Below, one piece after another: positions 1 through 10,899 of a stretch of DNA of 34,490 nucleotides. The notes under the pieces are model-generated. The model had not been told where the DNA came from. It saw only the letters and a program-made list of their open reading frames with translations, and searched no databases. The stretch is from positions 1-34,490 of the forward strand of contig CADBFJ010000021.1 in the NCBI GenBank assembly GCA_902793915.1, in the 5' to 3' direction. Positions within the stretch are counted from its first letter, which is position 1. Each line of letters starts with the position of its first letter. The translations under genes were made by a program, and so were the position numbers. The stretch comes from an uncultured Ruminococcus sp. (GTDB lineage Bacteria; Bacillota; Clostridia; Oscillospirales; CAG-272).

Positions 1-678
1 AAACCCGCAAAAGAGGAATCCATGAAAAAGGCGGCAGGCTACTACCTTGCTGTCAAAGAGATTGCAAAAGAACGGAATTACCGCTCGATCTCGATCAAGG
101 ACGTGGACGGCATGAAGAAGCTTTGCGGCTTCCCGCCGGCACCGATCTTCATGCTTCTCTCGGAAGACGGATATACGACCATTCCCGAAAACGACAGCCT
201 CGGCGCCGTGACCCAGCTCCTCATGAACAAGCTGACGGGGCAACTCGCAGGCTATCTCGAATTCTACGAATTCTTTGAAAAGAGCGTTCTTGCCGGCGTG
301 CCGGATTTCGTTGCCGCCGATATGGTGGATGGCGACACCTACACGGTGCTTCCCGCCGCGTTCGGACTTCTCGACGAGGGCATTCTCAACGTTTCCAAGG
401 TCAAAACCGGCGTCGTTACGATGTCGCGCCTGACCTACAGCAAGGGCAAATACACCATGCAGATGCTCCTCGGCAACGGCAAAACGCCGCCCAAGTGGGA
501 GGAATGCGGCTGGGATCAGCCTGCGCCTCAACTCTCGGCGCTTGAAATCGAGATCCCCGACGTCGAACGCTTTGCCGAGAACGTTGCCTGCCAGCACTAC
601 ATCATCACCTACGGCGATAACAGAGAAGCGATCCGCAACCTCTGCAAGATCCTCGGCATTGACGTTCTGGAACTTTGA
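1..678 (+). CDS. L-fucose/L-arabinose isomerase family protein, C-terminal half (probably 5'-partial)
   Basis: The translation resembles the central and C-terminal region of FucI/AraA-family aldose-ketose isomerases. The frame is open from base 1 (KPAKEES before Met at 22). An AAGAGGA sits 5 nt before ATG 22, so a start at 22 cannot be excluded. Confidence 0.65.
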   Translation, partial: KPAKEESMKKAAGYYLAVKEIAKERNYRSISIKDVDGMKKLCGFPPAPIFMLLSEDGYTTIPENDSLGAVTQLLMNKLTGQLAGYLEFYEFFEKSVLAGVPDFVAADMVDGDTYTVLPAAFGLLDEGILNVSKVKTGVVTMSRLTYSKGKYTMQMLLGNGKTPPKWEECGWDQPAPQLSALEIEIPDVERFAENVACQHYIITYGDNREAIRNLCKILGIDVLEL

Positions 679-689
679 GGAGGCGCCGC

Positions 690-1394
690 ATGTACAAGAA
701 TTACAAAATCCGCGCCCCTTATTTTGAGATCGGCCCCAAATGCTTCATGTGGGGCGAGCGGATGCTGAAGCTTGCCAAAAAGATCGACGAGATCGCTTAC
801 AAATACGACCTTGATGTCATCGTGACGCCGCAGTATGCCGACATTCGTCTGTTGGCCGAGAACACCAAGTATATCCACGTTTACGCCCAGCACATGGACG
901 CGCTCTATCCCGGACGAGGACTCGGTTCAGTGCTTCCCGAATCGATCAAAGAGGCGGGAGCCGTCGGCGTCATGCTCAACCATGCCGAAAAGAAACTGAC
1001 GCTCGATGAGATCAAAGCGACGATCGCGCGCGCCGACGAGGTAGGACTTGCCACCATCGTTTGCGCCGACAGCGTCGAGGAGATCAAACAGGTCGCGCTC
1101 ATGGCGCCCAACCTCATCGTCGCCGAGCCGACCGAACTCATCGGGACAGGAGTTGCGAGCGATATGGGCTACGTCAGAGACACCATCGAGGCGGTCAGAA
1201 AGATTAACCCCGATATCATGGTGCTTCAAGGCGCGGGTATTTCCGGTCCCGACGACGTGGCAAACGTGATTCGCGCCGGCGCACAGGCGACCGGTTGCAC
1301 GAGCGGCGTGTTCAAGGCAAAAGACCCCGAAGCCGCCGCAGAAGAAATGCTCTACACGCTCCGCAAAACATGGGACGAGGTACACGGAAAATGA
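690..1394 (+). CDS. Triosephosphate isomerase family protein (archaeal-type TIM paralogue)
   Basis: GAGGAGG lies 7 nt upstream of ATG 690. The motifs MLNHAEKK (catalytic His region) and VAEPTELIGTG (catalytic Glu region) are typical of archaeal-type TIM. The protein is about 234 aa. Confidence 0.8.
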   Translation: MYKNYKIRAPYFEIGPKCFMWGERMLKLAKKIDEIAYKYDLDVIVTPQYADIRLLAENTKYIHVYAQHMDALYPGRGLGSVLPESIKEAGAVGVMLNHAEKKLTLDEIKATIARADEVGLATIVCADSVEEIKQVALMAPNLIVAEPTELIGTGVASDMGYVRDTIEAVRKINPDIMVLQGAGISGPDDVANVIRAGAQATGCTSGVFKAKDPEAAAEEMLYTLRKTWDEVHGK

Positions 1395-1990
1395 AAGACG
1401 AAACTTTGCGTCTTGCGATGAACGCTTTTGCGATTGAGAGCGAGTCGCTCCTCGAAACTGCAAAAGTCCTTGACGAGAAAGAGTTTACCAAAGCTGTCGA
1501 GGCGCTGGTCAAAGCACCGCGCATCGCCGCGACCGGCTGTGGACACAGCGGCATCGCCGCGCGTCACTTCGCGCACCTGATGTGTTGCGTCGAGCGCCCG
1601 GCGCGCTTCCTCTCGCCCGCCGAAGCACCGCACGGTGCTCTCGGCTTTCTGCAAAAGGGCGACGTCCTCGTTTGGGCGTCGCGCGGAGGCAAAACCGACG
1701 AGCTGACGAAAATCCTGGAAATTGCAAAAGGGAAGGGCGTCACGATCATCGGCGTTACCGAAGCGCTCGATTCTCCCTTGGCAAAGAAATCGGACATTCT
1801 GCTTGCCATGAAGGTGACAAAAGAAACCGATCGCTTTAACTGCCAGGGCACGACGAGCTTTGCCGTGACCAACGCGATCTTTGACGCATTGCAAACCGCC
1901 GTCATGGAGGAAAGCGGCTTTGTCAATGAAGAATTCGCCGTGATCCACCCAAACGGCGCGGTCGGAAAGCGACTGAACAAAAAAGGATAA
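1391..1990 (+). CDS. SIS-domain phosphosugar isomerase (KpsF/GutQ/6-phospho-3-hexuloisomerase-like)
   Basis: The start overlaps the upstream stop as ATGA. The ATGCGHSGIAARHF SIS nucleotide/sugar-phosphate loop is present, followed by a GVTIIGVT segment. Confidence 0.85.
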   Translation: MKDETLRLAMNAFAIESESLLETAKVLDEKEFTKAVEALVKAPRIAATGCGHSGIAARHFAHLMCCVERPARFLSPAEAPHGALGFLQKGDVLVWASRGGKTDELTKILEIAKGKGVTIIGVTEALDSPLAKKSDILLAMKVTKETDRFNCQGTTSFAVTNAIFDALQTAVMEESGFVNEEFAVIHPNGAVGKRLNKKG

Positions 1991-2002
1991 CCTGACCTTT
2001 CT

Positions 2003-2899
2003 ATGAAGAAAAAAGAATTTGCTTTCATCATCGTAGCCGGCCTTATGTGGGGCTCCTCCTGCCTCTTTATCCACGCGCTCTCTCCGCTTGGGTTTAGCGT
2101 AGGGCAGATGGTGTCGGCACGCGGCGTGGTGTCCTTTGTCGCCATGGCGCTTTACGCACTGCTTTTTAACCGAAAGAGTTTTCGGATAAAGCTTTTGGAT
2201 CTGCCGCTTTTCTGTGGCATGGGCGTCCTTCTCTTTGCAACCGCTTATTTCTACTACCTCGGTGTGCAAAGAACCTCACCCTCCACGGCGGCAGTGCTCA
2301 TGTATATGGCGCCTGTCTATGTGCTGATCTTTTCGGTCATCTTTTTTCACGAGCACTTTACGCCGGCAAAAGGCATCTCGATCTTCGTCATGCTCGTCGG
2401 CTGTGCACTCGTCTCGGGGGTCGTCGGGGGCCTTGCCTTCGACTTTGTCGGAATGTTGTTCTCCTTTCTGTCGGGCGTTTGCTATGCGGCTTACAGTCTC
2501 TTTGCAAAGCTTGCGGCAAAACAGGAAAAAGACACGGTATCCCTCTCGATTTATTCTTATTTTGCTATGGCGATCGTTTCGCTTTTCTTTGCAAAACCCG
2601 TGGAAATGGCAGGCTTTATCGCAAAAGAACCGGCAAAATCGATTCCGCTTCTCGTCGGCATCGGTCTTGTGACCTTCGTTATCCCGTATTTTCTCTATAC
2701 CGTTTCGTTTCGGCGTCTGCCTGCCGGAACCGTCTCGGCGCTTGCCGTCTTGGAACCGCTTGCCGCAACGCTTTACAGCGTTTTCTTCCTTGGCGAGCGG
2801 CTGACGGTGGCTTCGGGCATCGGCGTTTTCCTGATTCTTGGGGCGATCGTTGCCCTCGGCATTTTTACCGGCAGAGAGCCAACCAGTACCGAAAATTAA
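2003..2899 (+). CDS. EamA/DMT-superfamily transporter
   Basis: 298 aa and highly hydrophobic, with about 10 predicted TM segments in a two-EamA-repeat architecture. The RBS is weak, so the start is uncertain. Confidence 0.8.
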   Translation: MKKKEFAFIIVAGLMWGSSCLFIHALSPLGFSVGQMVSARGVVSFVAMALYALLFNRKSFRIKLLDLPLFCGMGVLLFATAYFYYLGVQRTSPSTAAVLMYMAPVYVLIFSVIFFHEHFTPAKGISIFVMLVGCALVSGVVGGLAFDFVGMLFSFLSGVCYAAYSLFAKLAAKQEKDTVSLSIYSYFAMAIVSLFFAKPVEMAGFIAKEPAKSIPLLVGIGLVTFVIPYFLYTVSFRRLPAGTVSALAVLEPLAATLYSVFFLGERLTVASGIGVFLILGAIVALGIFTGREPTSTEN

Positions 2900-2929
2900 A
2901 ATTTTACATACAAAAAAGGAGTTTTTATC

Positions 2930-3550
2930 ATGGAATTCAAAGTGTATCAAAAGGAACTCGAACTGCAATCGAGAGGTTGGATCCCGACCTTCCACGACGT
3001 CTCGAAGGAGATCATTGAGATCGTCAAGGCGTCCGGCGTAAAGAACGGAACCGTTTGCATCGCCTCTCACCACACCACCTGCTCGGTCATGGTGCAGGAA
3101 TGCTCGCACGATATCGACAGCTTCGACCTCGAATTCTTACAGCACGACCTGCTCGACATCATGCGCAAACTCGTTCCCGATTTCAAGGAAGAGCACCAGT
3201 ATCGTCATCCCGGCCCGATCCATGCAAAGTTTGGCCGCTTTGTCAACGAGCCCGGCGACTTCACCAGCATGAACACCGACGGACATCTTCGTTCGGTCTT
3301 CTTCGGCAGAAGCGAGACCATGACCATCAAGGACGGCGTTCTGGACGGCGGCGAGTTCGCACACGTCTATTTCGTCGACTGGGATCAGGTCAGAGCAAGA
3401 CGCCGTCAGCTTAACGTCACGGTCATGGGCACGACCGATAAGGTCGAGGACCGCAAGTGGAACAACGGTGAAGTCATCAACACCCTGCACAAGTTCACCG
3501 ATGAAGAAAAGGGCGACGACGTCCACTACACGCTCCAACAGCAGAGATAA
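2930..3550 (+). CDS. YjbQ/UPF0047 family protein (secondary thiamine-phosphate synthase family), extended form
   Basis: AAGGAG RBS. It has the YjbQ-like core (TVCIASHHTTCSVMVQE ... DGHLRSVFFGRSETMTI ... GEFAHVYFVDWD) plus an internal insertion and a C-terminal tail of about 40 aa. Confidence 0.7.
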   Translation: MEFKVYQKELELQSRGWIPTFHDVSKEIIEIVKASGVKNGTVCIASHHTTCSVMVQECSHDIDSFDLEFLQHDLLDIMRKLVPDFKEEHQYRHPGPIHAKFGRFVNEPGDFTSMNTDGHLRSVFFGRSETMTIKDGVLDGGEFAHVYFVDWDQVRARRRQLNVTVMGTTDKVEDRKWNNGEVINTLHKFTDEEKGDDVHYTLQQQR

Positions 3551-3578
3551 AATCGTTCCGAGATAGGAGAATCTTTCT

Positions 3579-4259
3579 ATGAAACTCATTCTTGATACCG
3601 CGAATCTCGAAGATATCCGCTATTTCAACACCTACTACCCGATCGTGGGCGTGACCACCAACCCGACCATCCTCTCGCGCGAGGGCGGCGACATCGTCGC
3701 TCACCTGCACGAGATCCGCAAGATCATCGGCAACAAGGAACTGCACATTCAGGTCACCGAGACCGATTACGATGCGATGGTCAAAGAAGCGAAAGCGATC
3801 GTCAAGGCCTTTGGAAACAAAGAGACCGTCTGCGTGAAGATCCCCGCCACCGATGTGGGTCTGCGCGCCACCAAAGCGCTCGCCGAAGAGGGCTATCGCA
3901 TCACCGTGACCGCCGTCCTTTCTGCGGGACAGGCTCTCCTTGCCGCAAATGCAGGCGCCGCCTACGTGGCTCCCTATGTCAGCAGACTGGAGAACATCGG
4001 TGCCGACGGCGTGGGAACCGTAGCCGAAATTCAGGAGATCTTTGACGCCGCGGGAACCGACACCCAGATTCTTGCCGCCAGCTTCAAGACGGCGCGCGAA
4101 GTGCTCGACGTTGCCCTGACCGGTGCCGGTGCCGCTACCGTTTCTGCCGACGTGATGAAACGCCTCCTGGCACACACCACGACCGATACATCGATCGCGG
4201 GCTTTGCCGCCGACTGGGAAAAAGCATTTGGCAAAAAAACGCTCGGGAGCATGCTCTAA
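3579..4259 (+). CDS. Fructose-6-phosphate aldolase / transaldolase family class I aldolase (TalC/Fsa-like)
   Basis: TAGGAGA RBS. The N-terminus is MKLILDTANLEDI with GVTTNPTIL. The Schiff-base lysine context VCVKIPAT is present. The 226-aa length is typical of the short Fsa/TalC subfamily. Confidence 0.9.
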   Translation: MKLILDTANLEDIRYFNTYYPIVGVTTNPTILSREGGDIVAHLHEIRKIIGNKELHIQVTETDYDAMVKEAKAIVKAFGNKETVCVKIPATDVGLRATKALAEEGYRITVTAVLSAGQALLAANAGAAYVAPYVSRLENIGADGVGTVAEIQEIFDAAGTDTQILAASFKTAREVLDVALTGAGAATVSADVMKRLLAHTTTDTSIAGFAADWEKAFGKKTLGSML

Positions 4260-4265
4260 AACACG

Positions 4266-5312
4266 ATGAAACAATATCTTTTACCCAAGACGGGCAAATT
4301 CTTCAAAGTCAATCTGCACTGTCACACGGTTTGCTCGGACGGCAGGCAGACTCCCGAGGAAGTCAAAGAGTTGTTCAAAGCAAACGGATATTCCGCCGTC
4401 GCGTTCACCGATCACGAGATCATGCTCGATCATTCGGATCTAAACGATGAAGACTTCATCGCCTTGACCGGTTACGAATACGGTCTCGATAAAAACCCGG
4501 TCAACCCCTTTCCCGCGCTCTACGAAGGCGCGCTGATCTCGCGCCAGCACGTGGAAAAGGTGCATCTCAACCTCTATTCCAAAGACCCGCACGATACCCG
4601 CATGGTTTGCTGCGATCTCGATTACATCTGGGGAAACGCCAGAAAGTATCTCGACGAGGCGCGCTATGTGGGGGACCCTCACTACCAGAGAAAATACACG
4701 GTGGAAGGGGTCAACGAGGTCATTCGCGCGGCAAAAGAGCGGAATATGCTTGTCACTTACAATCATCCCAACTGGTCGATGAACACGCGCCATCTCTATT
4801 GCTCGCTCGAAAATCTGACCGCGCTTGAAATTCTGAACGGCGATGCCATGAGCAGCAGCGATATGGCCGACGCGACGCACGTCTATCAGGAAATGATGCG
4901 TGCAGGGAAGCGGATCCTTTGCGTCGGCGGCGACGATAACCACTCGAACGAAGCCAGCGGTCTTGCCTGGACGATGATCAAGGCCGAAAAGCTTTCTTAT
5001 GCCGATCTGATCGACGGGCTGGAACAGGGCAACTGCTACGCGTCAAGCGGCCCCGAGATCAAAGAACTCTATGTCGAAAACGGTAAAGTCACCATCAAAA
5101 CCTCTGATGCGGTAGGCATCTTTCTCCATACCGCGGGCAGACGCACCGACTGCAAAACGGTAAGACCCGGCGAGACGCCTGTTACCGAGGCGACCTTTGC
5201 CTTGCAGTCGCACGACCTTTTGTTCCGGATCTCGGTGCGCGATCTCTACGGCAACCACGCCTACACACGATACTACTATTTTGACGAACTGAAAGAACAG
5301 ATTGTCGATTAA
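4266..5312 (+). CDS. PHP-domain metal-dependent phosphoesterase
   Basis: The N-terminal LHCHTVCSDG ... AFTDHE His-rich motifs match the PHP (polymerase and histidinol phosphatase) fold. The gap to the upstream gene is 6 nt. Confidence 0.75.
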   Translation: MKQYLLPKTGKFFKVNLHCHTVCSDGRQTPEEVKELFKANGYSAVAFTDHEIMLDHSDLNDEDFIALTGYEYGLDKNPVNPFPALYEGALISRQHVEKVHLNLYSKDPHDTRMVCCDLDYIWGNARKYLDEARYVGDPHYQRKYTVEGVNEVIRAAKERNMLVTYNHPNWSMNTRHLYCSLENLTALEILNGDAMSSSDMADATHVYQEMMRAGKRILCVGGDDNHSNEASGLAWTMIKAEKLSYADLIDGLEQGNCYASSGPEIKELYVENGKVTIKTSDAVGIFLHTAGRRTDCKTVRPGETPVTEATFALQSHDLLFRISVRDLYGNHAYTRYYYFDELKEQIVD

Positions 5313-5323
5313 AGGGGAAAGAT

Positions 5324-6580
5324 ATGGATCAAGCAACCGAAATCAAGGAACCTCTATATGGGCGGGACAGAAGGCAAGCGATCCTAGTATTGCTCGCTTT
5401 TCTGATCTACTCGCTCTTGCTCGCGTCAAGATATGCTTTTAGCGCAAGTATCCTTTCGATCGAAGCCTACTACGGCGTCAGCCACGCCGAAGCAGGATGG
5501 GCTTTTACCCTTTTTAACATTTCCTATGGGATCGTTCAGCTCGTTCACACCTTTTTTTGCAAACGCTATTCCAGCCGCTATGTGATCGCGGGGATTTTGC
5601 TTGTGACAGGCGGATTGCAACTGGTACAGTATTTTCGCCCGCCTTTTGTCAGCCTCGCCTATCTTTGGCTTGTTTGTGGGCTTGTGCAATCGGCGTTTTG
5701 GCCGACCTTTATCTACATGCTCAGCCAGGCGCTTGACGAGCGCTACATGAAAAAAGCCGTGCTCGCATTTGGCTTTTCGGCACTCTTCGGCAAGGTTCTC
5801 GAATACGGCGGACGCGCATTGCTCGGCAATGACCGTTTTCAGTTTCTCTTTCTCGGAAACGCCGTTTTGCTTGCCTCTCTCGGCTTTGTATGGCTGTTTG
5901 CCTGCAACAAACTGACGCTTGGCAAAGCAGAACCGCAGAAAGAAGAAAGCACAAATGTGAGCGCCGGCAAAAAGGCGCTTCCGCTCGCTATGATCGTTTT
6001 CCTGACGATCTGTTCTGTTTTGGTCATTCCCGCCAACTTTATCCGGGAAGGCGTTTCCACCTGGATGCCTTCCATATTGACCGAGCAGTTCGGGCAGGGC
6101 GACCGCCTTTCGCTCATTCTTACCATGGCGCTCTCGGTAACGGCGCTTCTCGGGACCTATCTTGCGGTCGGCGTTAATCAGTTGATCAAAAACTATCGCA
6201 CGTTGCTGTTGCTTTTCTTCGCTTGTACGGCACTTTTTGTCGGCGGCGCAATTCTGGCTATGCGGGGCGGGTACACGATCTTGCTTGTGATTTCTGCCGG
6301 CTGTGCGATCTGCCTTGGCAGCGCGATCAACACGGTGCTCATCACCATGTTGCCGCTTGCGATGCGCGATGAGGTCAATTCCGGATTTCTCGCCGGACTG
6401 CTCAACAGCGCCGCTTATGTCGGCGTCGCGGCAAGCACCTATGGCATGGGGTGGATCGCCGATCAGGCAGGCGGTTGGAGTCGGGTGTTCGTTGTTTTGC
6501 TTGTAATGTCGCTTTTCTCGCTGGCACTGTCGGCTGTTAACCTCTTTTTCGGCAAAACGCAGAGCAAAACCGATGCTTGA
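5324..6580 (+). CDS. MFS transporter
   Basis: AAGGGGAAAG RBS. 418 aa with about 12 hydrophobic segments and a central charged loop (KAEPQKEESTNVSAGKK) in a 6+6 MFS arrangement. Confidence 0.85.
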   Translation: MDQATEIKEPLYGRDRRQAILVLLAFLIYSLLLASRYAFSASILSIEAYYGVSHAEAGWAFTLFNISYGIVQLVHTFFCKRYSSRYVIAGILLVTGGLQLVQYFRPPFVSLAYLWLVCGLVQSAFWPTFIYMLSQALDERYMKKAVLAFGFSALFGKVLEYGGRALLGNDRFQFLFLGNAVLLASLGFVWLFACNKLTLGKAEPQKEESTNVSAGKKALPLAMIVFLTICSVLVIPANFIREGVSTWMPSILTEQFGQGDRLSLILTMALSVTALLGTYLAVGVNQLIKNYRTLLLLFFACTALFVGGAILAMRGGYTILLVISAGCAICLGSAINTVLITMLPLAMRDEVNSGFLAGLLNSAAYVGVAASTYGMGWIADQAGGWSRVFVVLLVMSLFSLALSAVNLFFGKTQSKTDA

Positions 6581-6595
6581 CAAACAAAATCAAAG

Positions 6596-6627
6596 AGGCT
6601 TGGATGTTTTCATCCAAGCCTTTTTTT
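6596..6627. terminator. Bidirectional rho-independent terminator between the MFS gene and the convergent AraC gene
   Basis: Stem AGGCTTGGATG / CATCCAAGCCT with loop TTTT, followed by TTTTTT and preceded by an A-rich run. Confidence 0.8.
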
Positions 6628-6632
6628 GTCTT

Positions 6633-7493
6633 TTATTTTTCTTTGATCGATAGATTTGAAACCGGGCTTAAGTCTTTTGCGTCGGTTCTTCGGTATTGTG
6701 ACGGGGTCATGCCAAAACGCGTGCGGAACAAACGAATATAGTTGGAAAGATCGGGGAAACCAGATTCCACGCAAGCGTCTGTTACGCTTCTGCCTTCGCG
6801 CAAAAGCTCTCTCGAATAGGCAAGCCGACGGTTTTCCAAATAGGTTTTCGGCGTCATCTGAAAATACTTGCGGAACAGCTCGCGCAAACGAAAAGAGGAA
6901 ATGTGATATTTTTCCAGAAAATAAGAAAGCTCGTGAACCTTTGAGAGGTTCTTTGAGATGTCGTCCAAGATCATTTGGAGTTCCTCGGGGAGCTTTTCGC
7001 CCTTTGCGGGCGTTCCGAGGCAATCGTGCCAAAGAGAGAGAAGTTTTACCATGGCGGCGTATTCGGCGAGCGGCTCGTTCTTTTCATAAAGAGAGACAAG
7101 CGCCGCGGCTGTGTCGAGGATCTCGAGCCGCGCTGCTTCGCTTGCAGGGGAGAGCAGATTTTGTTTCTTTGCTCCCGTGTGTAAAAAATCTCCAAAGAGA
7201 AATTCCGAATCCGAGCGGAACCAAAAGCAGTAATGCTTGTGCACCGTTTCTTTGTTCAGTACACAGTTGTGGACTTCGTTCGGGCGCGACAGCACCGTGT
7301 CTCCCGGCTGCAGGCGGCAGAGGTTTTCCCCCACGAGGAAGGAAACGTCTCCCTCCATAAGCAGATAAAATTCAAGACAATCATGAATGTGCGGCGCAAA
7401 GCGCTCGCTGTGCAGTTCCGATCCGTCAAGACAGTAGTATTGTAGTTCAGTCTGCGAAAGCCCCGGAATTTCTACGGTAGAATACTCGTTCAT
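6633..7493 (-). CDS. AraC family transcriptional regulator (cupin sensor domain plus HTH)
   Basis: The start is at the Met of MNEYSTVE, preceded by GGAGGAG. An N-terminal cupin-like HIHDCLEFYLLMEGD segment is present. The C-terminal dual HTH (YLENRRLAYSRELL ... SNYIRLFRTRFGMTPSQYR) is typical of AraC/XylS regulators. Confidence 0.9.
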   Translation of the reverse strand: MNEYSTVEIPGLSQTELQYYCLDGSELHSERFAPHIHDCLEFYLLMEGDVSFLVGENLCRLQPGDTVLSRPNEVHNCVLNKETVHKHYCFWFRSDSEFLFGDFLHTGAKKQNLLSPASEAARLEILDTAAALVSLYEKNEPLAEYAAMVKLLSLWHDCLGTPAKGEKLPEELQMILDDISKNLSKVHELSYFLEKYHISSFRLRELFRKYFQMTPKTYLENRRLAYSRELLREGRSVTDACVESGFPDLSNYIRLFRTRFGMTPSQYRRTDAKDLSPVSNLSIKEK

Positions 7494-7586
7494 TGGCTCC
7501 TCCGTGTTTTGAGAAGGTTTACAACAACATTCTACCACATTTTTTTAAAAATGGGATAAAAATATGCATTTTTTAAAAAATCTCAC

Positions 7587-7636
7587 AAAAAAAGTACGGA
7601 GGAAACTTTTGCAAAAGCTTCCTCCGTACGATTTTT
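7587..7636 (-). terminator. Long hairpin terminator ending the pduL/NifU-like/GGGtGRT operon (also has a T-run on the plus strand)
   Basis: GTACGGAGGAA (7594-7604) pairs with TTCCTCCGTAC (7619-7629), with an inner CTTTTGCAAAAG palindrome. It is flanked by an A-run at 7587-7593 (a T-run on the minus strand) and by GATTTTT on the plus strand. Confidence 0.8.
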
Positions 7637-7643
7637 GATTGTC

Positions 7644-8657
7644 TTATTTCTGCAGTGCTTCCTGGATAGCGACTGCAACTGCGACGGTCATACCGACCAT
7701 CGGGTTATTGCCGGCACCGATGAGTCCCATCATCTCAACGTGAGCGGGGACCGAGGAGGAGCCTGCGAACTGTGCGTCGCTGTGCATTCTGCCCATGGTA
7801 TCGGTCATGCCGTAAGAGGACGGACCTGCTGCCATGTTATCGGGGTGGAGGGTACGACCCGTTCCGCCGCCCGATGCGACCGAGAAATACTTAAATCCGT
7901 TCTCCACACACCACTTTTTGTAGGTGCCTGCGACCGGGTGCTGGAATCTGGTCGGGTTGGTGGAGTTACCGGTGATCGAAACGCCGACCTTCTCGAGCTT
8001 CATAATGGCAACGCCTTCGGGGACGTTGTCAGCGCCGAAGCAACGGACGTTGGCTCTGGGACCCTTGGAGAAGGGCACGGTCTTTACGACCTTCACGGTT
8101 TCGGTGTAGGGATCAAACTCGGTCTGGCAGTAGGTAAAGCCGTTGATGCGCGAGATAATGTAAGCGGCGTCTTTTCCAAGACCGTTGAGGATCACGCGCA
8201 GGGGCTTGTTGCGAACCTTGTTGGCGTTGAGCGCGATCTTGATCGCGCCCTCTGCGGCTGCAAAGGACTCATGTCCTGCGAGGAAGCAGAAACATTCGGT
8301 CTCTTCGGAGAGGAGCATTTTGCCGAGGTTGCCGTGCCCCAAGCCGACCTTGCGGTTTTCGGCGACCGAACCGGGGATGCAGAAGCTTTGCAGACCGATG
8401 CCGATGTTGGCGGCAGCGGTTGCGGCGCTCTTGTCGCCGGTGCGTTCAGCCTCTTTCAGCGCGATTGCCGCGCCGACCGTGTAAGCCCACTTTGCGTTCT
8501 CAAAGCAGATGGGCTGGGTTTCCTGCACGATGGTGTAGGGGTCGATGCCGACCTTGTCGCAAATGGTTTTGCATTCGTCGATCGACGAAATGCCGTATTG
8601 TTTCAGGACGCCGAGAATCTTGGCTTCCCGTCTTTCATAACCTTCAAACTGTGCCAT
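7644..8657 (-). CDS. GGGtGRT-family protein (function unknown)
   Basis: GGAGG RBS. 337 aa. A literal GGGTGRT motif is encoded at 7851-7871. The length and motif match the family named GGGtGRT. Confidence 0.9.
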   Translation of the reverse strand: MAQFEGYERREAKILGVLKQYGISSIDECKTICDKVGIDPYTIVQETQPICFENAKWAYTVGAAIALKEAERTGDKSAATAAANIGIGLQSFCIPGSVAENRKVGLGHGNLGKMLLSEETECFCFLAGHESFAAAEGAIKIALNANKVRNKPLRVILNGLGKDAAYIISRINGFTYCQTEFDPYTETVKVVKTVPFSKGPRANVRCFGADNVPEGVAIMKLEKVGVSITGNSTNPTRFQHPVAGTYKKWCVENGFKYFSVASGGGTGRTLHPDNMAAGPSSYGMTDTMGRMHSDAQFAGSSSVPAHVEMMGLIGAGNNPMVGMTVAVAVAIQEALQK

Positions 8658-8673
8658 GTTTCTCTACCTCCTA

Positions 8674-9399
8674 TCAGTCTTTGCGCGGGTCAATGTACTT
8701 CACGGCGCCGTCTTCGGGATTGAATCTGCCGTAATGTCCCATTGCCTTCTTGTATGCTTCGTTGGGTTCCATACCTTTTTTGATGAAGTCGGTCATCTTG
8801 CCGAGCGAGACGAACTCGTAGCCGATGACTTCGTTGTTTTCATCGAGTGCCATGCGGGTGCAGTAGCCTTCGGTCATCTCAAGGTAGCGGACGCCTTTTT
8901 CTTTCGTGCCGTACATGGTACCTACCATCGAACGGGCGCCTTTGCCGAGGTCTTCCATACCTGCGCCGATCACAAGACCGCCTTCCGAGAAGGCAGACTG
9001 CGAACGACCGTAGACGATCTGCAGGAAGAGTTCTCTCATAGCGGTGTTGATCGCGTCGCAAACGAGGTCGGTATTCAGGGCTTCAAGAATGGTTTTGCCG
9101 GGCAGGATCTCTGCTGCCATAGCGGCAGAGTGGGTCATACCCGAGCAGCCGATGGTCTCAACCAGGGCTTCTTCAATGATGCCGTTCTTCACGTTGAGCG
9201 AGAGCTTGCAGGCGCCCTGTTGAGGAGCGCACCAGCCCACGCCGTGGGTATAGGCGGAAATGTCGGAAATCTGTTTTGCCTGGATCCATTTGCCTTCCTC
9301 GGGCAGGGGAGCCGGGCCGTGGTCGCAACCCTTTCTCACCACGCACTGATGTTCTACTTCAGCGCTCATGGCATAGGGGCGTTCACTTACGTTGCTCAT
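8674..9399 (-). CDS. NifU/IscU-like Fe-S scaffold-domain protein with an uncharacterised C-terminal domain
   Basis: AGGAG RBS. It has an IscU-like cysteine pattern (GWCAP..GACKL, GCSGM, LVCDA) followed by about 110 aa that I do not recognise. Confidence 0.75.
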   Translation of the reverse strand: MSNVSERPYAMSAEVEHQCVVRKGCDHGPAPLPEEGKWIQAKQISDISAYTHGVGWCAPQQGACKLSLNVKNGIIEEALVETIGCSGMTHSAAMAAEILPGKTILEALNTDLVCDAINTAMRELFLQIVYGRSQSAFSEGGLVIGAGMEDLGKGARSMVGTMYGTKEKGVRYLEMTEGYCTRMALDENNEVIGYEFVSLGKMTDFIKKGMEPNEAYKKAMGHYGRFNPEDGAVKYIDPRKD

Positions 9400-9444
9400 G
9401 TCTCTTTCTCCTTTTTTTATGTTAATCTTTTGAATGAACGGAAT

Positions 9445-10020
9445 TTATGCCAAAACCTCGCCGTAGACTTCGCCAAAGGCGGAGGCGGCATTGCACTCGT
9501 CGGTGTCAATGTGCATGGCGAGCGCAAAGTTGGGGTTGACGCGGACGACCACGTCGTCAAAAATGAGCGAACGCTCGGAGTTGATCTTGACCTTGACGAT
9601 CTGCTTGTCCTTGACGCCGAAGGCTTCGGCATCGGCGGGGGTCATGTGAATGTGGCGCTTTGCGATGATGACGCCTTCGTTGATCGTGATCTCTCCTGCG
9701 GGACCGACAAGTTTAAGACCCGGAGTTCCCGCGGTGTCACCGCTCTCGCGGACCGGCACGCCGGCAAGTCCGAGTGCACGCGCGTCGGTGTAGGAAAGCT
9801 CGACCTGATTGGATTTTCTCTCGGGACCCAGAACGCTGACTGCGAGGCTGCCTTTGGGGCCGACGAGCGTGATTTTTTCATTGCCGCAGGCAAACTGCCC
9901 GGGTTGGCTGAGCATCTTTTTGACGGTCAGCTCGGCGCCCTTTCCATAGAGCGCTTCAACTGCTTCTTTCGTCAGGTGAATGTGTCTTGCGGAAGTTTCG
10001 ACCAAGACTTTCTTTTCCAT
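9445..10020 (-). CDS. pduL: Phosphate propanoyltransferase PduL-like (acyl-CoA:phosphate acyltransferase)
   Basis: The start is at the Met of MEKKVLVE. Two PduL repeats each carry the RHIH motif (SARHIHLT and AKRHIHMT). About 191 aa. Confidence 0.85.
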   Translation of the reverse strand: MEKKVLVETSARHIHLTKEAVEALYGKGAELTVKKMLSQPGQFACGNEKITLVGPKGSLAVSVLGPERKSNQVELSYTDARALGLAGVPVRESGDTAGTPGLKLVGPAGEITINEGVIIAKRHIHMTPADAEAFGVKDKQIVKVKINSERSLIFDDVVVRVNPNFALAMHIDTDECNAASAFGEVYGEVLA

Positions 10021-10080
10021 AATTTCAAAAGACCTTTCTTTCAAATTTCGCTTTGGGGCATTTTTACCCCAGACACAATC

Positions 10081-10109
10081 ATTATAGCATATCCTTTTTG
10101 TTTTGTAAA
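10081..10109 (-). promoter_or_regulatory. Sigma-A-type promoter for the pduL operon
   Basis: On the minus strand the sequence reads TTTACA, a 17-nt spacer, then TATAAT with a TGc extended -10. It lies about 60 nt upstream of the pduL start. Confidence 0.6.
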
Positions 10110-10200
10110 GCAGTCTTTGCAACAAAATCGCTTTACATAGGAAGAAATTTTGCGGTTCATAATAGTTTCAAACAGTGAAAAAACGCGAAGGAGTGTAAGA

Positions 10201-10899
10201 ATGGAACCCAAACGAAAAGATCGTCCCGAAGTTGCCGAGCTTTTCCATATCAAAGCGGAGAACGAGCCGTTTCCCTGCATTTCCATTATTGGGCAGATCG
10301 AAGGGCATTATTTGCTCGGAGACGGGCAAAAAGCGACCAAATACGAAGAAATTTTGCCGCGCCTTGTTTCCATGGAGCAGGACGAAGAAGTGCGAGGACT
10401 GCTCATTTTGCTCAACACGATGGGAGGCGACGTGGAAGCCGGCATGGCGCTCTCGGAGCTCATCGCCTCTCTCTCCAAGCCGACCGTCTCTCTGGTGCTC
10501 GGCGGAGGACACTCGATCGGCGTGCCGCTTGCCACGGCTGCGGATTATTCTCTCATCGTTCCAAGTGCCACGATGACGGTACACCCGGTCAGGATCAACG
10601 GCACGGTGCTCGGTGTTCCGCAATCCTTCCTCTATATGAGCGAAATGCAAAAACGGATCATTGGTTTTATCTGCGCCCACTCAAAAGCGAAGGAAGAAAC
10701 GATCCGAGAGCTCATGATGCGCCCCGACCAGCTCGCCACCGACTGCGGTTCTGTGCTCGAAGGAAAGGAAGCGGTCGAGTATGGGATTATCGACGAAGTA
10801 GGCGGGCTTTCGCGCGCGATGGAGAAACTGCGCGAACTTTCCAAAACTCCTGCGAAAAAACTCTCTCAAAAAGACGAAAAAAGGGGCGGGAGCACTTGA
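10201..10899 (+). CDS. tepA: ClpP-family translocation-enhancing protein TepA
   Basis: AAGGAG RBS 7 nt before ATG 10201. It closely resembles my recollection of B. subtilis TepA/YmfB (IIGQIEGH, LNTMGGDVEAG, SKPTVSLVLGGGHSIGVP, TMTVHPVR). Confidence 0.85.
   Translation: MEPKRKDRPEVAELFHIKAENEPFPCISIIGQIEGHYLLGDGQKATKYEEILPRLVSMEQDEEVRGLLILLNTMGGDVEAGMALSELIASLSKPTVSLVLGGGHSIGVPLATAADYSLIVPSATMTVHPVRINGTVLGVPQSFLYMSEMQKRIIGFICAHSKAKEETIRELMMRPDQLATDCGSVLEGKEAVEYGIIDEVGGLSRAMEKLRELSKTPAKKLSQKDEKRGGST

What the first reader, a model, noticed from the sequence alone, without database searches (positions are those of the whole stretch)
7587..10109. Self-contained pduL-like / NifU-like / GGGtGRT operon with no known pathway context
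Seen in the sequence: three minus-strand genes are separated by 44-nt and 16-nt gaps, and each has its own Shine-Dalgarno sequence. The unit is bounded by a near-consensus promoter (TTTACA-17-TATAAT, 10081-10109) and a long hairpin terminator (7594-7629), so it is an autonomous three-gene unit.

The products are:
- a PduL-type phosphotransacylase with both RHIH repeats;
- a 241-aa protein whose N-terminal half has the IscU/NifU cysteine pattern and whose C-terminal ~110 aa I cannot place;
- a 337-aa protein carrying a literal GGGTGRT motif (7851-7871).

Established knowledge: PduL interconverts acyl-CoA and acyl-phosphate, classically inside 1,2-propanediol microcompartment loci. To my knowledge the GGGtGRT family has no assigned function.

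This locus has no shell proteins, no diol dehydratase, no aldehyde dehydrogenase and no acyl kinase nearby.

Inference: the trio could be an Fe-S-dependent enzyme module acting on an acyl-phosphate or acyl-CoA intermediate, with the NifU-like protein as a dedicated scaffold or subunit. It is the best candidate in the window for an undescribed system.
Basis: partly seen in the sequence, partly recalled or inferred. Interest (0 to 1): 0.72.

Follow-up and report, generated by a model that had tools for sequence, protein, structure and literature searches.

The report
PduL plus conserved NifU-like/GGGtGRT pair
The three-gene operon is real, but its conserved core is only the NifU-like/GGGtGRT gene pair, a very abundant, very conserved, probably iron-sulfur protein pair of gut anaerobes with no known function; the PduL gene is joined to it in one lineage only.

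Summary
A near-consensus promoter (10109-10081), three minus-strand genes (PduL 9445-10020, NifU-like 8674-9399, GGGtGRT 7644-8657) and a 16-bp hairpin terminator (7629-7594) form one unit. No microcompartment, diol dehydratase or acetate kinase gene lies anywhere in the 34 kb.

- **The pair is the conserved unit.** The NifU-like gene sits directly upstream of GGGtGRT in 76 of 76 related genomes with upstream DNA. The same holds in spot-checked archaeal, Bacteroidota-type and ~50%-identical divergent loci.
- **PduL is a lineage addition.** It precedes the pair in 9 of 60 close relatives and in no other group. About 60% of PduL's own closest orthologues do carry the pair downstream.
- **PduL is probably the housekeeping enzyme.** It lacks the microcompartment targeting peptide and is most likely the cell's phosphotransacetylase.
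- **The pair has no characterised relative.** GGGtGRT has no structural or sequence homologue in the PDB. The partner has an IscU fold with an altered, invariant His-Cys4 set and an unplaceable C-terminal half.

Papers through 2026 report the pair (BT0173-4) as abundant and iron-repressed, with function unknown. I read it as an obligate two-subunit Fe-S protein. A catalytic role near phosphorylated acids is only inferred. It is a known unknown, not a new discovery.

The parts
10081..10109 (-). Sigma-70-type promoter TTTACA-17-TATAAT with a TG extension
   Evidence: 11 of 12 matches. It is the only strong promoter-like site on this strand between 7300 and 10400.
9445..10020 (-). PduL-type phosphotransacylase, 191 aa, without an N-terminal encapsulation peptide
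   Evidence: PTAC E 4.4e-78 covering residues 7-180; PRK15070 is above its cutoff; an independent gene call gives 191 aa. PMC4784909: the encapsulation peptide occurs only in microcompartment-associated homologues.
9400..9444 (-). 45-nt intergenic spacer with the AGGAG Shine-Dalgarno sequence of the NifU-like gene; no promoter-like site
8674..9399 (-). NifU-like subunit, 241 aa: an IscU-fold N-terminal half (about residues 48-130) with invariant H52, C57, C64, C85 and C114, and a conserved C-terminal half with no detectable relatives
7644..8657 (-). GGGtGRT protein (PF14057), 337 aa: a helical N-terminal domain, a Rossmann-like alpha/beta domain, and invariant Gly/His/Asp-rich loops (residues 263-300)
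7851..7871 (-). Codons for the GGGTGRT motif (residues 263-269), invariant in 95 family members
7594..7629 (-). Intrinsic terminator: a 16-pair hairpin followed by a run of T

Best explanation
The region is one promoter-to-terminator operon of an uncultured gut or rumen Clostridia bacterium. It joins two separate things.

(1) PduL without an encapsulation peptide and outside any microcompartment. It is most likely the cell's housekeeping phosphotransacetylase (acyl-CoA + Pi <-> acyl-phosphate + CoA). This is inferred from family membership and context.

(2) The universally linked NifU-like/GGGtGRT gene pair. I read it as an obligate two-subunit iron-sulfur protein of strict anaerobes.
- The IscU-fold subunit holds a permanently bound Fe-S cluster or metal through the invariant Cys57, Cys64, Cys85 and Cys114 (plus His52). 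This is inferred.
- The GGGtGRT subunit has a fold of its own: a helical domain, a Rossmann-like domain, and invariant glycine-, histidine- and aspartate-rich loops. Those loops are predicted disordered in isolation. I infer that they order against the partner and form the ligand or active site.

Shown: the conserved functional unit is the pair. PduL was placed upstream of it in one lineage, which co-expresses the pair with the acetate-forming branch.

The pair's reaction is unknown. My best guess is an iron-dependent enzyme of central fermentative metabolism that acts on or near phosphorylated acids (acyl-phosphate or phosphoglycerate level).

Confidence by layer: pair as the core and PduL as a lineage-specific addition, about 0.85; Fe-S heteromer, about 0.6; the phospho-acid role, about 0.3.
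For: - **Pair linkage.** The NifU-like gene is immediately upstream (gaps of about 15-30 nt) in 76 of 76 loci with upstream DNA. The same holds in a Methanobacteriaceae MAG, in other lineages, and in a divergent clade at 47-53% identity, where the two genes overlap.
- **No other conserved neighbour.** No other neighbour recurs in more than 10 of 81 loci.
- **Conservation.** GGGtGRT is 81% identical to an Alistipes copy, 77% to Treponema, and 73% to the archaeal MAG copy. Among 1.84 billion 50%-identity representatives there are only about two intact full-length clusters.
- **Invariant residues.** H52, C57, C64, C85 and C114 are invariant in the partner across 76 sequences. GGGtGRT has many invariant polar residues and a single invariant Cys206.
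- **Structure.** The N-terminal half of the partner has an IscU fold (Foldseek E 4e-4, probability 1.0). GGGtGRT has no PDB relative by sequence, profile or fold: the best Foldseek hit has E 0.011 and TM 0.24, to generic Rossmann-like domains. Its most conserved segment, 263-300, has pLDDT below 50 in the monomer model.
- **Literature.** BT0173-74 fall 11- to 13-fold in low iron (PMC10434189). The C. pasteurianum protein is listed among those that change with iron availability (PMC5395762). [quoted passage not shown] Transposon insertions in BT0173-4 partly relieve glucose repression of Cur, in the same screen that recovered pfkA, without a growth defect on glucose (bioRxiv 10.64898/2026.04.10.717545).
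- **Context hints for phosphorylated substrates.** PduL is here. The divergent clade has a conserved operon of apgM (iPGM, NF003104 above cutoff), NifU-like, GGGtGRT, a membrane protein, and His_Phos_1.
- **PduL.** It lacks an encapsulation peptide, and PduL homologues without one are proposed to replace Pta (PMC4784909, PMC5920165).
Against: - No complex, metal content or activity has been measured. I could not run a multimer prediction.
- The NifU-like model is of low confidence overall (pLDDT 64).
- The phospho-acid idea rests on gene neighbourhoods in two lineages and a modest 2-fold phenotype. In most genomes the pair stands alone among unrelated housekeeping genes.
- B. thetaiotaomicron insertion mutants grow normally on glucose, so the pair is not an essential glycolytic step there.
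- The rest of this genome is not available, so I cannot show that a canonical pta is absent.
Confidence: 0.6

Rival explanations
1. The three genes are one dedicated enzyme module: PduL supplies or removes an acyl-phosphate or acyl-CoA that the Fe-S pair transforms, so PduL is an integral member.
For: - The genes are co-transcribed from one promoter with short gaps.
- Of 64 close PduL orthologues (67-86% identity) with downstream DNA, 40 have the NifU-like gene downstream, 30 of them immediately. This includes copies whose pair has diverged to 70-72% identity.
- The divergent clade also links the pair to phospho-transfer enzymes.
Against: - PduL is absent within 10 kb in 51 of 60 close GGGtGRT loci.
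- It is absent in every spot-checked locus from other lineages, archaeal and divergent-clade loci included.
- Loci without PduL have their own promoter for the pair.
- In several linked loci a GDSL hydrolase gene lies in between.
- PduL orthologues without the pair are solitary genes.
- Shared synteny with the divergent ClpP-like gene suggests inheritance within one lineage.
Confidence: 0.2
2. The pair is an Fe-S cluster assembly, storage, delivery or repair device. The IscU-like protein is a scaffold, and GGGtGRT takes the place that IscS/NifS/SufS has in the known two-component systems.
For: - The partner has an IscU fold and conserved Cys residues.
- NCBI names the partner 'iron-sulfur cluster assembly scaffold protein'.
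- Expression responds to iron.
- In two Treponema genomes the hydG-hydF-hydE-like maturase genes follow the pair on the same strand.
- Insertion mutants grow normally on glucose.
Against: - The pattern differs from scaffolds. The first IscU ligand position is Gln, and four invariant Cys plus one invariant His suggest a fixed cluster rather than a labile one.
- IscU, NifU and SufU equivalog models score far below their cutoffs.
- GGGtGRT has no PLP-enzyme or ATPase signature and only one invariant Cys.
- Very high abundance and strong repression in low iron are unusual for assembly machinery. This point rests on my own knowledge of SUF/ISC regulation, not on a test here.
- The Treponema adjacency is a single lineage.
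Confidence: 0.2
3. The pair is a sensor or regulator (of iron, redox state or glycolytic flux) rather than an enzyme.
For: Transposon insertions in BT0173-4 raise Cur-dependent Roc about 2-fold in glucose. Many Fe-S proteins act as sensors (general knowledge).
Against: - There is no DNA-binding or signalling domain.
- The protein ranks among the highly expressed proteins in vivo, which does not fit a regulator.
- The effect on Cur is small.
Confidence: 0.05

Closest known systems
BT0174-BT0173 of Bacteroides thetaiotaomicron (the 'NifU' / GGGtGRT pair)
   Same: It has the same two families, adjacent and co-regulated. This is the only form in which the pair has been studied: it is repressed 11- to 13-fold in low iron, and it was hit in a screen for loss of glucose repression of Cur. 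The window's GGGtGRT is 81% identical to a Bacteroidota (Alistipes) copy.
   Different: In B. thetaiotaomicron the locus is described as these two genes only. Here a PduL gene is transcribed ahead of the pair from the same promoter. No function is known in either case. I did not have the B. thetaiotaomicron sequence itself to align.
IscS-IscU, NifS-NifU and SufS-SufU two-component Fe-S assembly systems
   Same: The N-terminal half of the partner has the IscU fold. The Cys equivalent to IscU Cys63, and probably the one equivalent to Cys106, are kept. It is always paired with one specific partner gene.
   Different: - The partner is GGGtGRT, not a PLP cysteine desulfurase.
- The first ligand Cys position is Gln.
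- Extra invariant residues are present (Cys57, Cys64, His52).
- There is an additional conserved C-terminal half of about 110 aa.
- Scores fall below the Pfam and NCBIfam family thresholds.
PduL phosphotransacylases outside microcompartments (for example Moorella, and PduL-Ack fusions)
   Same: It has the two-repeat PTAC architecture with both RHxH motifs, no encapsulation peptide and no shell genes nearby. These are the features described for PduL homologues proposed to replace Pta (PMC4784909, PMC5920165).
   Different: No acetate kinase gene is adjacent or anywhere in the window. Instead the gene heads the NifU-like/GGGtGRT operon.
Pdu/Eut/GRM microcompartment PduL
   Same: It belongs to the same Pfam family. 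The next-best NCBIfam model is the Gram-positive BMC EutD.
   Different: There is no N-terminal targeting peptide and no BMC locus. The score against the BMC_EutD_Gpos model (249 bits) is below its 315-bit cutoff.

Membership tests
PduL / PTAC phosphotransacylase (PF06130) | Full-length match to the family model, with both repeats each carrying an RHxH motif | tested here: met
   E 4.4e-78, profile positions 2-174 of 176. PRK15070 251 bits against a cutoff of 209. ARHIHL and KRHIHM are read.
PduL / PTAC phosphotransacylase (PF06130) | Phosphotransacylase activity | not testable with these tools
   Needs an enzyme assay with acetyl-, propionyl- and butyryl-CoA.
Microcompartment-associated PduL | N-terminal amphipathic encapsulation peptide ahead of the catalytic core | tested here: not met
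   The Pfam match starts at residue 7 of 191. Independent gene calls give 191 aa. The longer TTG-initiated ORF would run through the promoter.
Microcompartment-associated PduL | BMC shell genes (PF00936, PF03319) and a signature enzyme in the neighbourhood | tested here: not met
   Pfam scans of the likely genes of the 34.5-kb window found none.
IscU/NifU_N Fe-S scaffold (PF01592; TIGR01999, TIGR03419, TIGR01994) | Score at or above the family threshold | tested here: not met
   Pfam 21.7 bits against a gathering score of 22. NCBIfam 25.7 against 187.9, 21.5 against 192.4, and 18.7 against 92.5.
IscU/NifU_N Fe-S scaffold | IscU fold | tested here: met
   Foldseek of the model against IscU/ISCU structures gives E 4e-4 to 1e-2 and probability 1.0 over about 100-120 residues. 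The model is of only moderate confidence there (pLDDT about 65-80).
IscU/NifU_N Fe-S scaffold | The three canonical ligand cysteines (E. coli Cys37, Cys63, Cys106) with the neighbouring Asp39 | tested here: not met
   The HMMER alignments to IscU place Gln61 at the Cys37 position. Cys85 aligns with Cys63. Cys114 probably corresponds to Cys106 by its position in the following helix. Different extra invariant residues are present: C57, C64 and H52.
IscU/NifU_N Fe-S scaffold | Adjacent cysteine desulfurase partner | tested here: not met
   The constant partner is GGGtGRT. No desulfurase was found in the window.
GGGtGRT protein family (PF14057) | Full-length match and the GGGtGRT motif | tested here: met
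   621 bits against a cutoff of 27, profile positions 1-327 of 327. The motif is invariant in 95 sequences.
NifU-like/GGGtGRT two-gene module (BT0174-BT0173 type) | NifU-like gene immediately upstream of GGGtGRT on the same strand | tested here: met
   The gap is 16 nt here. The arrangement holds in 76 of 76 related loci and in the spot-checked loci.
NifU-like/GGGtGRT two-gene module (BT0174-BT0173 type) | Physical complex carrying an Fe-S cluster | not testable with these tools
   The tools offered no multimer prediction. It needs co-purification and spectroscopy.
FtsZ/tubulin GTPases (considered because of the GGGTG(S/T)G signature) | Homology beyond the glycine motif | tested here: not met
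   hhalign of the family profile against E. coli FtsZ gives a probability of 0.9%. No FtsZ or tubulin appears among the 50 listed Foldseek matches.

The most novel reading that the evidence does not exclude
The NifU-like/GGGtGRT pair is a previously unrecognised two-subunit iron-sulfur enzyme with a fold of its own. It would catalyse a high-flux, iron-dependent step of anaerobic central metabolism at the level of phosphorylated acids, for example a ferredoxin-linked conversion of an acyl-phosphate or phosphoglycerate-type intermediate. This would explain three things: its co-transcription with PduL here and with iPGM and a His-phosphatase in the divergent clade; its very high abundance in gut and rumen anaerobes; and its effect on glucose signalling in Bacteroides.
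Probability: 0.25. Interest if true: 0.85.

Novelty: new variant of a known kind. Interest (0 to 1): 0.55.

Why it matters
GGGtGRT and its NifU-like partner are among the highly expressed proteins of distantly related gut and rumen anaerobes (Bacteroidota, Clostridia, Negativicutes and Succinatimonas in the literature; Treponema and a methanogen MAG by genome search). They are as conserved as core housekeeping proteins and respond strongly to iron. Yet they have no assigned function, no solved structure and no detectable homologue.

Assigning their function would fill a visible gap in gut-microbe physiology and in metaproteome interpretation. This window does not solve that.

The comparison made here does narrow the problem:
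- The unit to study is the pair, not the trio.
- The partner is an altered IscU fold with a fixed His-Cys4 set.
- Two independent operon variants (PduL; iPGM with a His-phosphatase) point towards phosphorylated-acid metabolism.

Tried and rejected
1. **FtsZ/tubulin relationship**, suggested by the GGGTG motif. hhalign gave a probability of 0.9% and Foldseek listed no such hit. Rejected.
2. **Natural fusions of the two proteins as a Rosetta-stone clue.** The long 'GGGtGRT' and 'NifU-like' proteins in the databases (P0001, P0002, P0010, P0016, P0121, P0390, P0397) are internal duplications typical of metagenome mis-assembly, not fusions.
3. **PDB relatives of GGGtGRT** by sequence, profile or fold. 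None was significant.
4. **Relatives of the C-terminal half of the NifU-like protein** in Pfam, the PDB or Foldseek. None.
5. **A riboswitch or other known RNA upstream of the pair.** No Rfam match in the window or in five related loci. No conserved operator was obvious by eye in about 70 upstream regions.
6. **A conserved third gene around the pair in the main clade.** Recurrent neighbours are ordinary genes shared by sub-lineages. As judged by eye from the cluster representatives, these are ribosomal proteins L21/L27, ClpC/McsAB, an ABC ATPase, AspRS and an integrase.
7. **Resolving the PduL-linked genomes as a clade from GGGtGRT identity.** The protein is too conserved to resolve them. Shared synteny with the ClpP-like gene was used instead.
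8. **A published function.** Full-text searches for GGGtGRT, PF14057, BT0173/BT0174 and related terms found only omics mentions and explicit statements that the function is unknown.
9. **The longer TTG start for PduL** (226 aa, 10125). Rejected because it overlaps the promoter and independent gene calls use the ATG.
Full report
**1. Checking the observation**

| Gene | Coordinates | Length | Family evidence |
|---|---|---|---|
| PduL-like | 9445-10020 | 191 aa | Pfam PTAC E 4.4e-78; NCBIfam phosphate propanoyltransferase 251 bits against a cutoff of 209 |
| NifU-like | 8674-9399 | 241 aa | NifU_N E 2.4e-4, 21.7 bits, just under the 22-bit gathering score |
| GGGtGRT | 7644-8657 | 337 aa | PF14057 E 3.9e-187, full length |

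- Both RHIH motifs of PduL can be read in the sequence, as can the literal GGGTGRT at 7851-7871.
- The gaps are 45 and 16 nt, and each gene has a purine-rich ribosome-binding site.
- The consensus scan finds TTTACA-17-TATAAT with a TG extension at 10109-10081. It also finds a 16-pair hairpin with a T-run at 7629-7594.
- Gene calls made independently on other metagenome contigs carrying the same genes give 191, 241 and 337 aa.
- Pfam scans of the other likely genes in the 34.5 kb found no shell protein, diol dehydratase, aldehyde dehydrogenase or acetate kinase. The genes they did find:
  - a fucose-isomerase fragment, a TIM-like protein, EamA, UPF0047, transaldolase/FSA, PHP, MFS and AraC;
  - a ClpP-like protein, an RNase T-type exonuclease, ThiI, a class II aminoacyl-tRNA synthetase, U32 peptidase and BacA;
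  - a sigma factor, MatE, MecA, YjeF, SHMT, MscL and Tex.

**2. Is the trio a conserved unit?**

I fetched 80 species-level loci from genome assemblies whose GGGtGRT is 74-91% identical to the window's. Most are Clostridia. The set also includes Alistipes, Treponema, a Kiritimatiellae MAG and a Negativicutes MAG.

- A tblastn of the three window proteins shows the NifU-like gene directly upstream of GGGtGRT in all 76 loci that have upstream DNA.
- PduL lies within 2.2 kb upstream in only 8 of these loci plus the window. That is 9 of 60 loci with enough upstream sequence.
- In four of those a GDSL-type hydrolase gene sits between PduL and the pair.
- All-against-all clustering of the open reading frames of the 81 loci found no other neighbour shared by more than 10 loci. 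The PduL-linked loci also share a divergently transcribed ClpP-like gene, which indicates inherited synteny.
- Loci without PduL have their own sigma-70-type promoter and a leader of roughly 40-80 nt in front of the NifU-like gene (read by eye).
- Spot checks elsewhere again show the bare pair among unrelated genes. These were a Methanobacteriaceae MAG with archaeal-type neighbours and two other lineages.

Seen from PduL, the picture is less one-sided.
- 64 of its closest metagenomic orthologues (67-86% identity) have at least 300 nt of downstream DNA. Of these, 40 are followed by the NifU-like gene, 30 of them immediately.
- Of 31 with at least 1.8 kb downstream, 19 have the NifU-like gene and 18 have GGGtGRT.
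- The unlinked orthologues are solitary genes. Some still sit next to the ClpP-like gene.

So the trio is a recurrent operon form within one lineage of uncultured gut or rumen Clostridia. The universal unit is the pair.

**3. What the parts are**

*PduL.* The Pfam match begins at residue 7, so there is no N-terminal extension. According to PMC4784909 the encapsulation peptide is found only in homologues associated with microcompartment loci, and homologues without it may replace Pta in the Pta-Ack pathway. Moorella humiferrea is an example with pduL and no pta (PMC5920165). I therefore read this PduL as the housekeeping phosphotransacetylase. That is an inference, because I cannot see the rest of the genome.

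*NifU-like protein.*
- The AlphaFold model is of modest quality (pLDDT 64).
- Its N-terminal half matches IscU/ISCU structures (Foldseek E 4e-4, probability 1.0). The C-terminal half matches nothing.
- In alignments to IscU the first ligand position (E. coli Cys37) is Gln61, and Cys85 aligns with Cys63.
- H52, C57, C64, C85 and C114 are invariant across 76 sequences, including the ~50%-identical divergent clade and the archaeal copy.
- Four invariant Cys and one invariant His look more like a fixed cluster or metal site than a labile scaffold site. This is inference.

*GGGtGRT.*
- The family is strikingly narrow and conserved. A search of 1.84 billion 50%-identity representatives gives essentially one main full-length cluster, one divergent one at 50% identity, and fragments.
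- Identity to the window's protein is 81% for Alistipes, 77% for Treponema, and 73% for the archaeal MAG copy.
- Ninety-five aligned members share over a hundred invariant positions, many of them polar, and a single invariant Cys at position 206.
- The model (pLDDT 82.5) shows a helical N-terminal domain and a Rossmann-like alpha/beta domain.
- The most conserved stretch, residues 263-300 (GGGTGRT...MTDTMGRMHS...FAGSS), has pLDDT below 50. That would fit a segment that folds only against a partner or cofactor.
- No PDB entry is related by sequence, profile or fold. The best Foldseek hit has E 0.011 and TM 0.24, to generic nucleotide- or phosphate-binding Rossmann-like domains such as phosphofructokinase.
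- The resemblance of GGGTG to the FtsZ/tubulin signature is only local (hhalign probability 0.9%).

**4. What is known from papers**

- Full-text searches found no functional study.
- Papers from 2024 and 2025 call the protein poorly characterised and its role unclear.
- In B. thetaiotaomicron the pair is BT0173-BT0174. It falls 11- to 13-fold in low iron (PMC10434189).
- Transposon insertions in BT0173-4 were recovered in the same screen as pfkA and an M16 peptidase locus, a screen for loss of glucose-dependent inhibition of the regulator Cur. The effect was modest (2-fold) and growth on glucose was normal (bioRxiv 10.64898/2026.04.10.717545).
- The Clostridium pasteurianum protein is listed among those whose abundance changes with iron availability (PMC5395762).
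- It is highly expressed in vivo in distant gut taxa and appears in rumen metaproteomes.

**5. A second operon context**

The divergent GGGtGRT clade is 47-54% identical to the window's protein. Three mutually diverged examples keep the overlapping or adjacent NifU-like gene, which is 47-53% identical to the window's. All three show the same operon, in this order:
1. An archaeal-type cofactor-independent phosphoglycerate mutase, above the NCBIfam equivalog cutoff.
2. The NifU-like gene.
3. GGGtGRT.
4. A 315-326 aa protein with N-terminal membrane helices and no family match.
5. A His_Phos_1 phosphatase or mutase.

Together with PduL here and the pfkA-like phenotype in Bacteroides, this is the basis for my guess that the pair works near phosphorylated acids. 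The guess is weak. The main-clade pair usually stands alone.

**6. Verdict**

Shown:
- A real, autonomous operon.
- An invariant two-gene core.
- PduL added in one lineage only.
- No characterised homologue for GGGtGRT or for the C-terminal half of its partner.

Inferred:
- The pair is an obligate Fe-S heteromer (about 0.6).
- PduL is the housekeeping phosphotransacetylase (about 0.7).
- The pair has a metabolic role at the acyl-phosphate or phosphoglycerate level (about 0.3).

Rivals:
- An Fe-S assembly, storage or repair device (0.2). The IscU fold and the hydG/hydF/hydE-like genes after the pair in two Treponema genomes support it. The altered ligand set and the expression pattern weaken it.
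- A sensor (0.05).

The pair is a known unknown: it is catalogued in Pfam and mentioned repeatedly in omics papers. The window therefore offers a new operon variant of a known but uncharacterised kind, not a new system. It remains a worthwhile experimental target.

Noticed in passing
L081:5997-10606, L085:6006-10548, L088:2572-8580: A divergent GGGtGRT clade (47-54% identical to the window's protein) has a conserved operon. In order: an apgM-type phosphoglycerate mutase, the NifU-like gene, GGGtGRT, a 315-326 aa membrane-anchored protein with no family match (one has a weak SLATT-like N-terminus), and a His_Phos_1 phosphatase or mutase. L088 has an extra 304-aa membrane protein. In L081 the operon lies near a transposase and XRE-type regulators.
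   Followed up: partly
L067:11554-14238 and L068:11725-15494: In two Treponema genomes the pair is followed on the same strand by a radical-SAM/BATS protein (HydG-like), HydF (Pfam HydF dimer and tetramer domains) and a second radical-SAM protein (HydE-like). These are the [FeFe]-hydrogenase maturase genes. In L029 the HydF and HydG-like genes lie about 9-10 kb away.
   Followed up: partly
window 10150-10899 (+): A ClpP-family (non-canonical, TepA-like) gene is transcribed divergently from PduL. This ClpP-like/PduL arrangement is kept in all nine PduL-linked loci. It is also kept in PduL orthologues that lack the pair downstream (L156, L167).
   Followed up: partly
proteins P0001, P0002, P0010, P0016, P0121, P0390, P0397: Database 'long' versions of GGGtGRT (438-494 aa) and of the NifU-like protein (291-336 aa) contain internal tandem duplications of slightly different copies. 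They look like metagenome mis-assemblies of strain mixtures, not fusions or real domain duplications.
   Followed up: yes
window 7635-8723 (+) and 8656-10140 (+): Long open reading frames (362 and 494 aa) run antisense to the three genes. Their codon-position GC pattern differs from that of the likely genes (lower GC3). They are shadow ORFs of GC3-rich genes, and they misled a naive longest-ORF gene caller on the related loci.
   Followed up: yes
window 1-7538: Downstream of the operon's terminator lies a block of sugar-metabolism-type genes: a fucose-isomerase C-terminal fragment, a TIM-like protein, an EamA transporter, UPF0047, transaldolase/fructose-6-phosphate aldolase, a PHP-domain protein, an MFS transporter and an AraC-family regulator. 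The AraC gene next to the operon is not a conserved neighbour of the pair.
   Followed up: partly
L012, L016, L035, L060; also L120-L122, L124: In part of the PduL-linked lineage a GDSL/SGNH hydrolase gene (about 210 aa) lies between PduL and the NifU-like gene on the same strand. In the metagenome loci this is inferred from a spacing of about 0.75-0.9 kb.
   Followed up: partly
L156:947-3307, L167:435-2834: Some PduL orthologues without the pair lie about 1.7 kb downstream of a glycyl-radical enzyme (PFL-like plus Gly_radical domains, confirmed by Pfam for L156). A PHP-domain gene and the ClpP-like gene lie in between.
   Followed up: no
L091:4048-5751: A Methanobacteriaceae MAG contig carries the pair, with GGGtGRT 73% identical to the window's. 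Its neighbours look archaeal (ATP-dependent DNA ligase, ThiC, DUF2099) and a rubredoxin gene lies next to it. Such high identity between an archaeon and bacteria suggests horizontal transfer, unless the contig is mis-binned.
   Followed up: no
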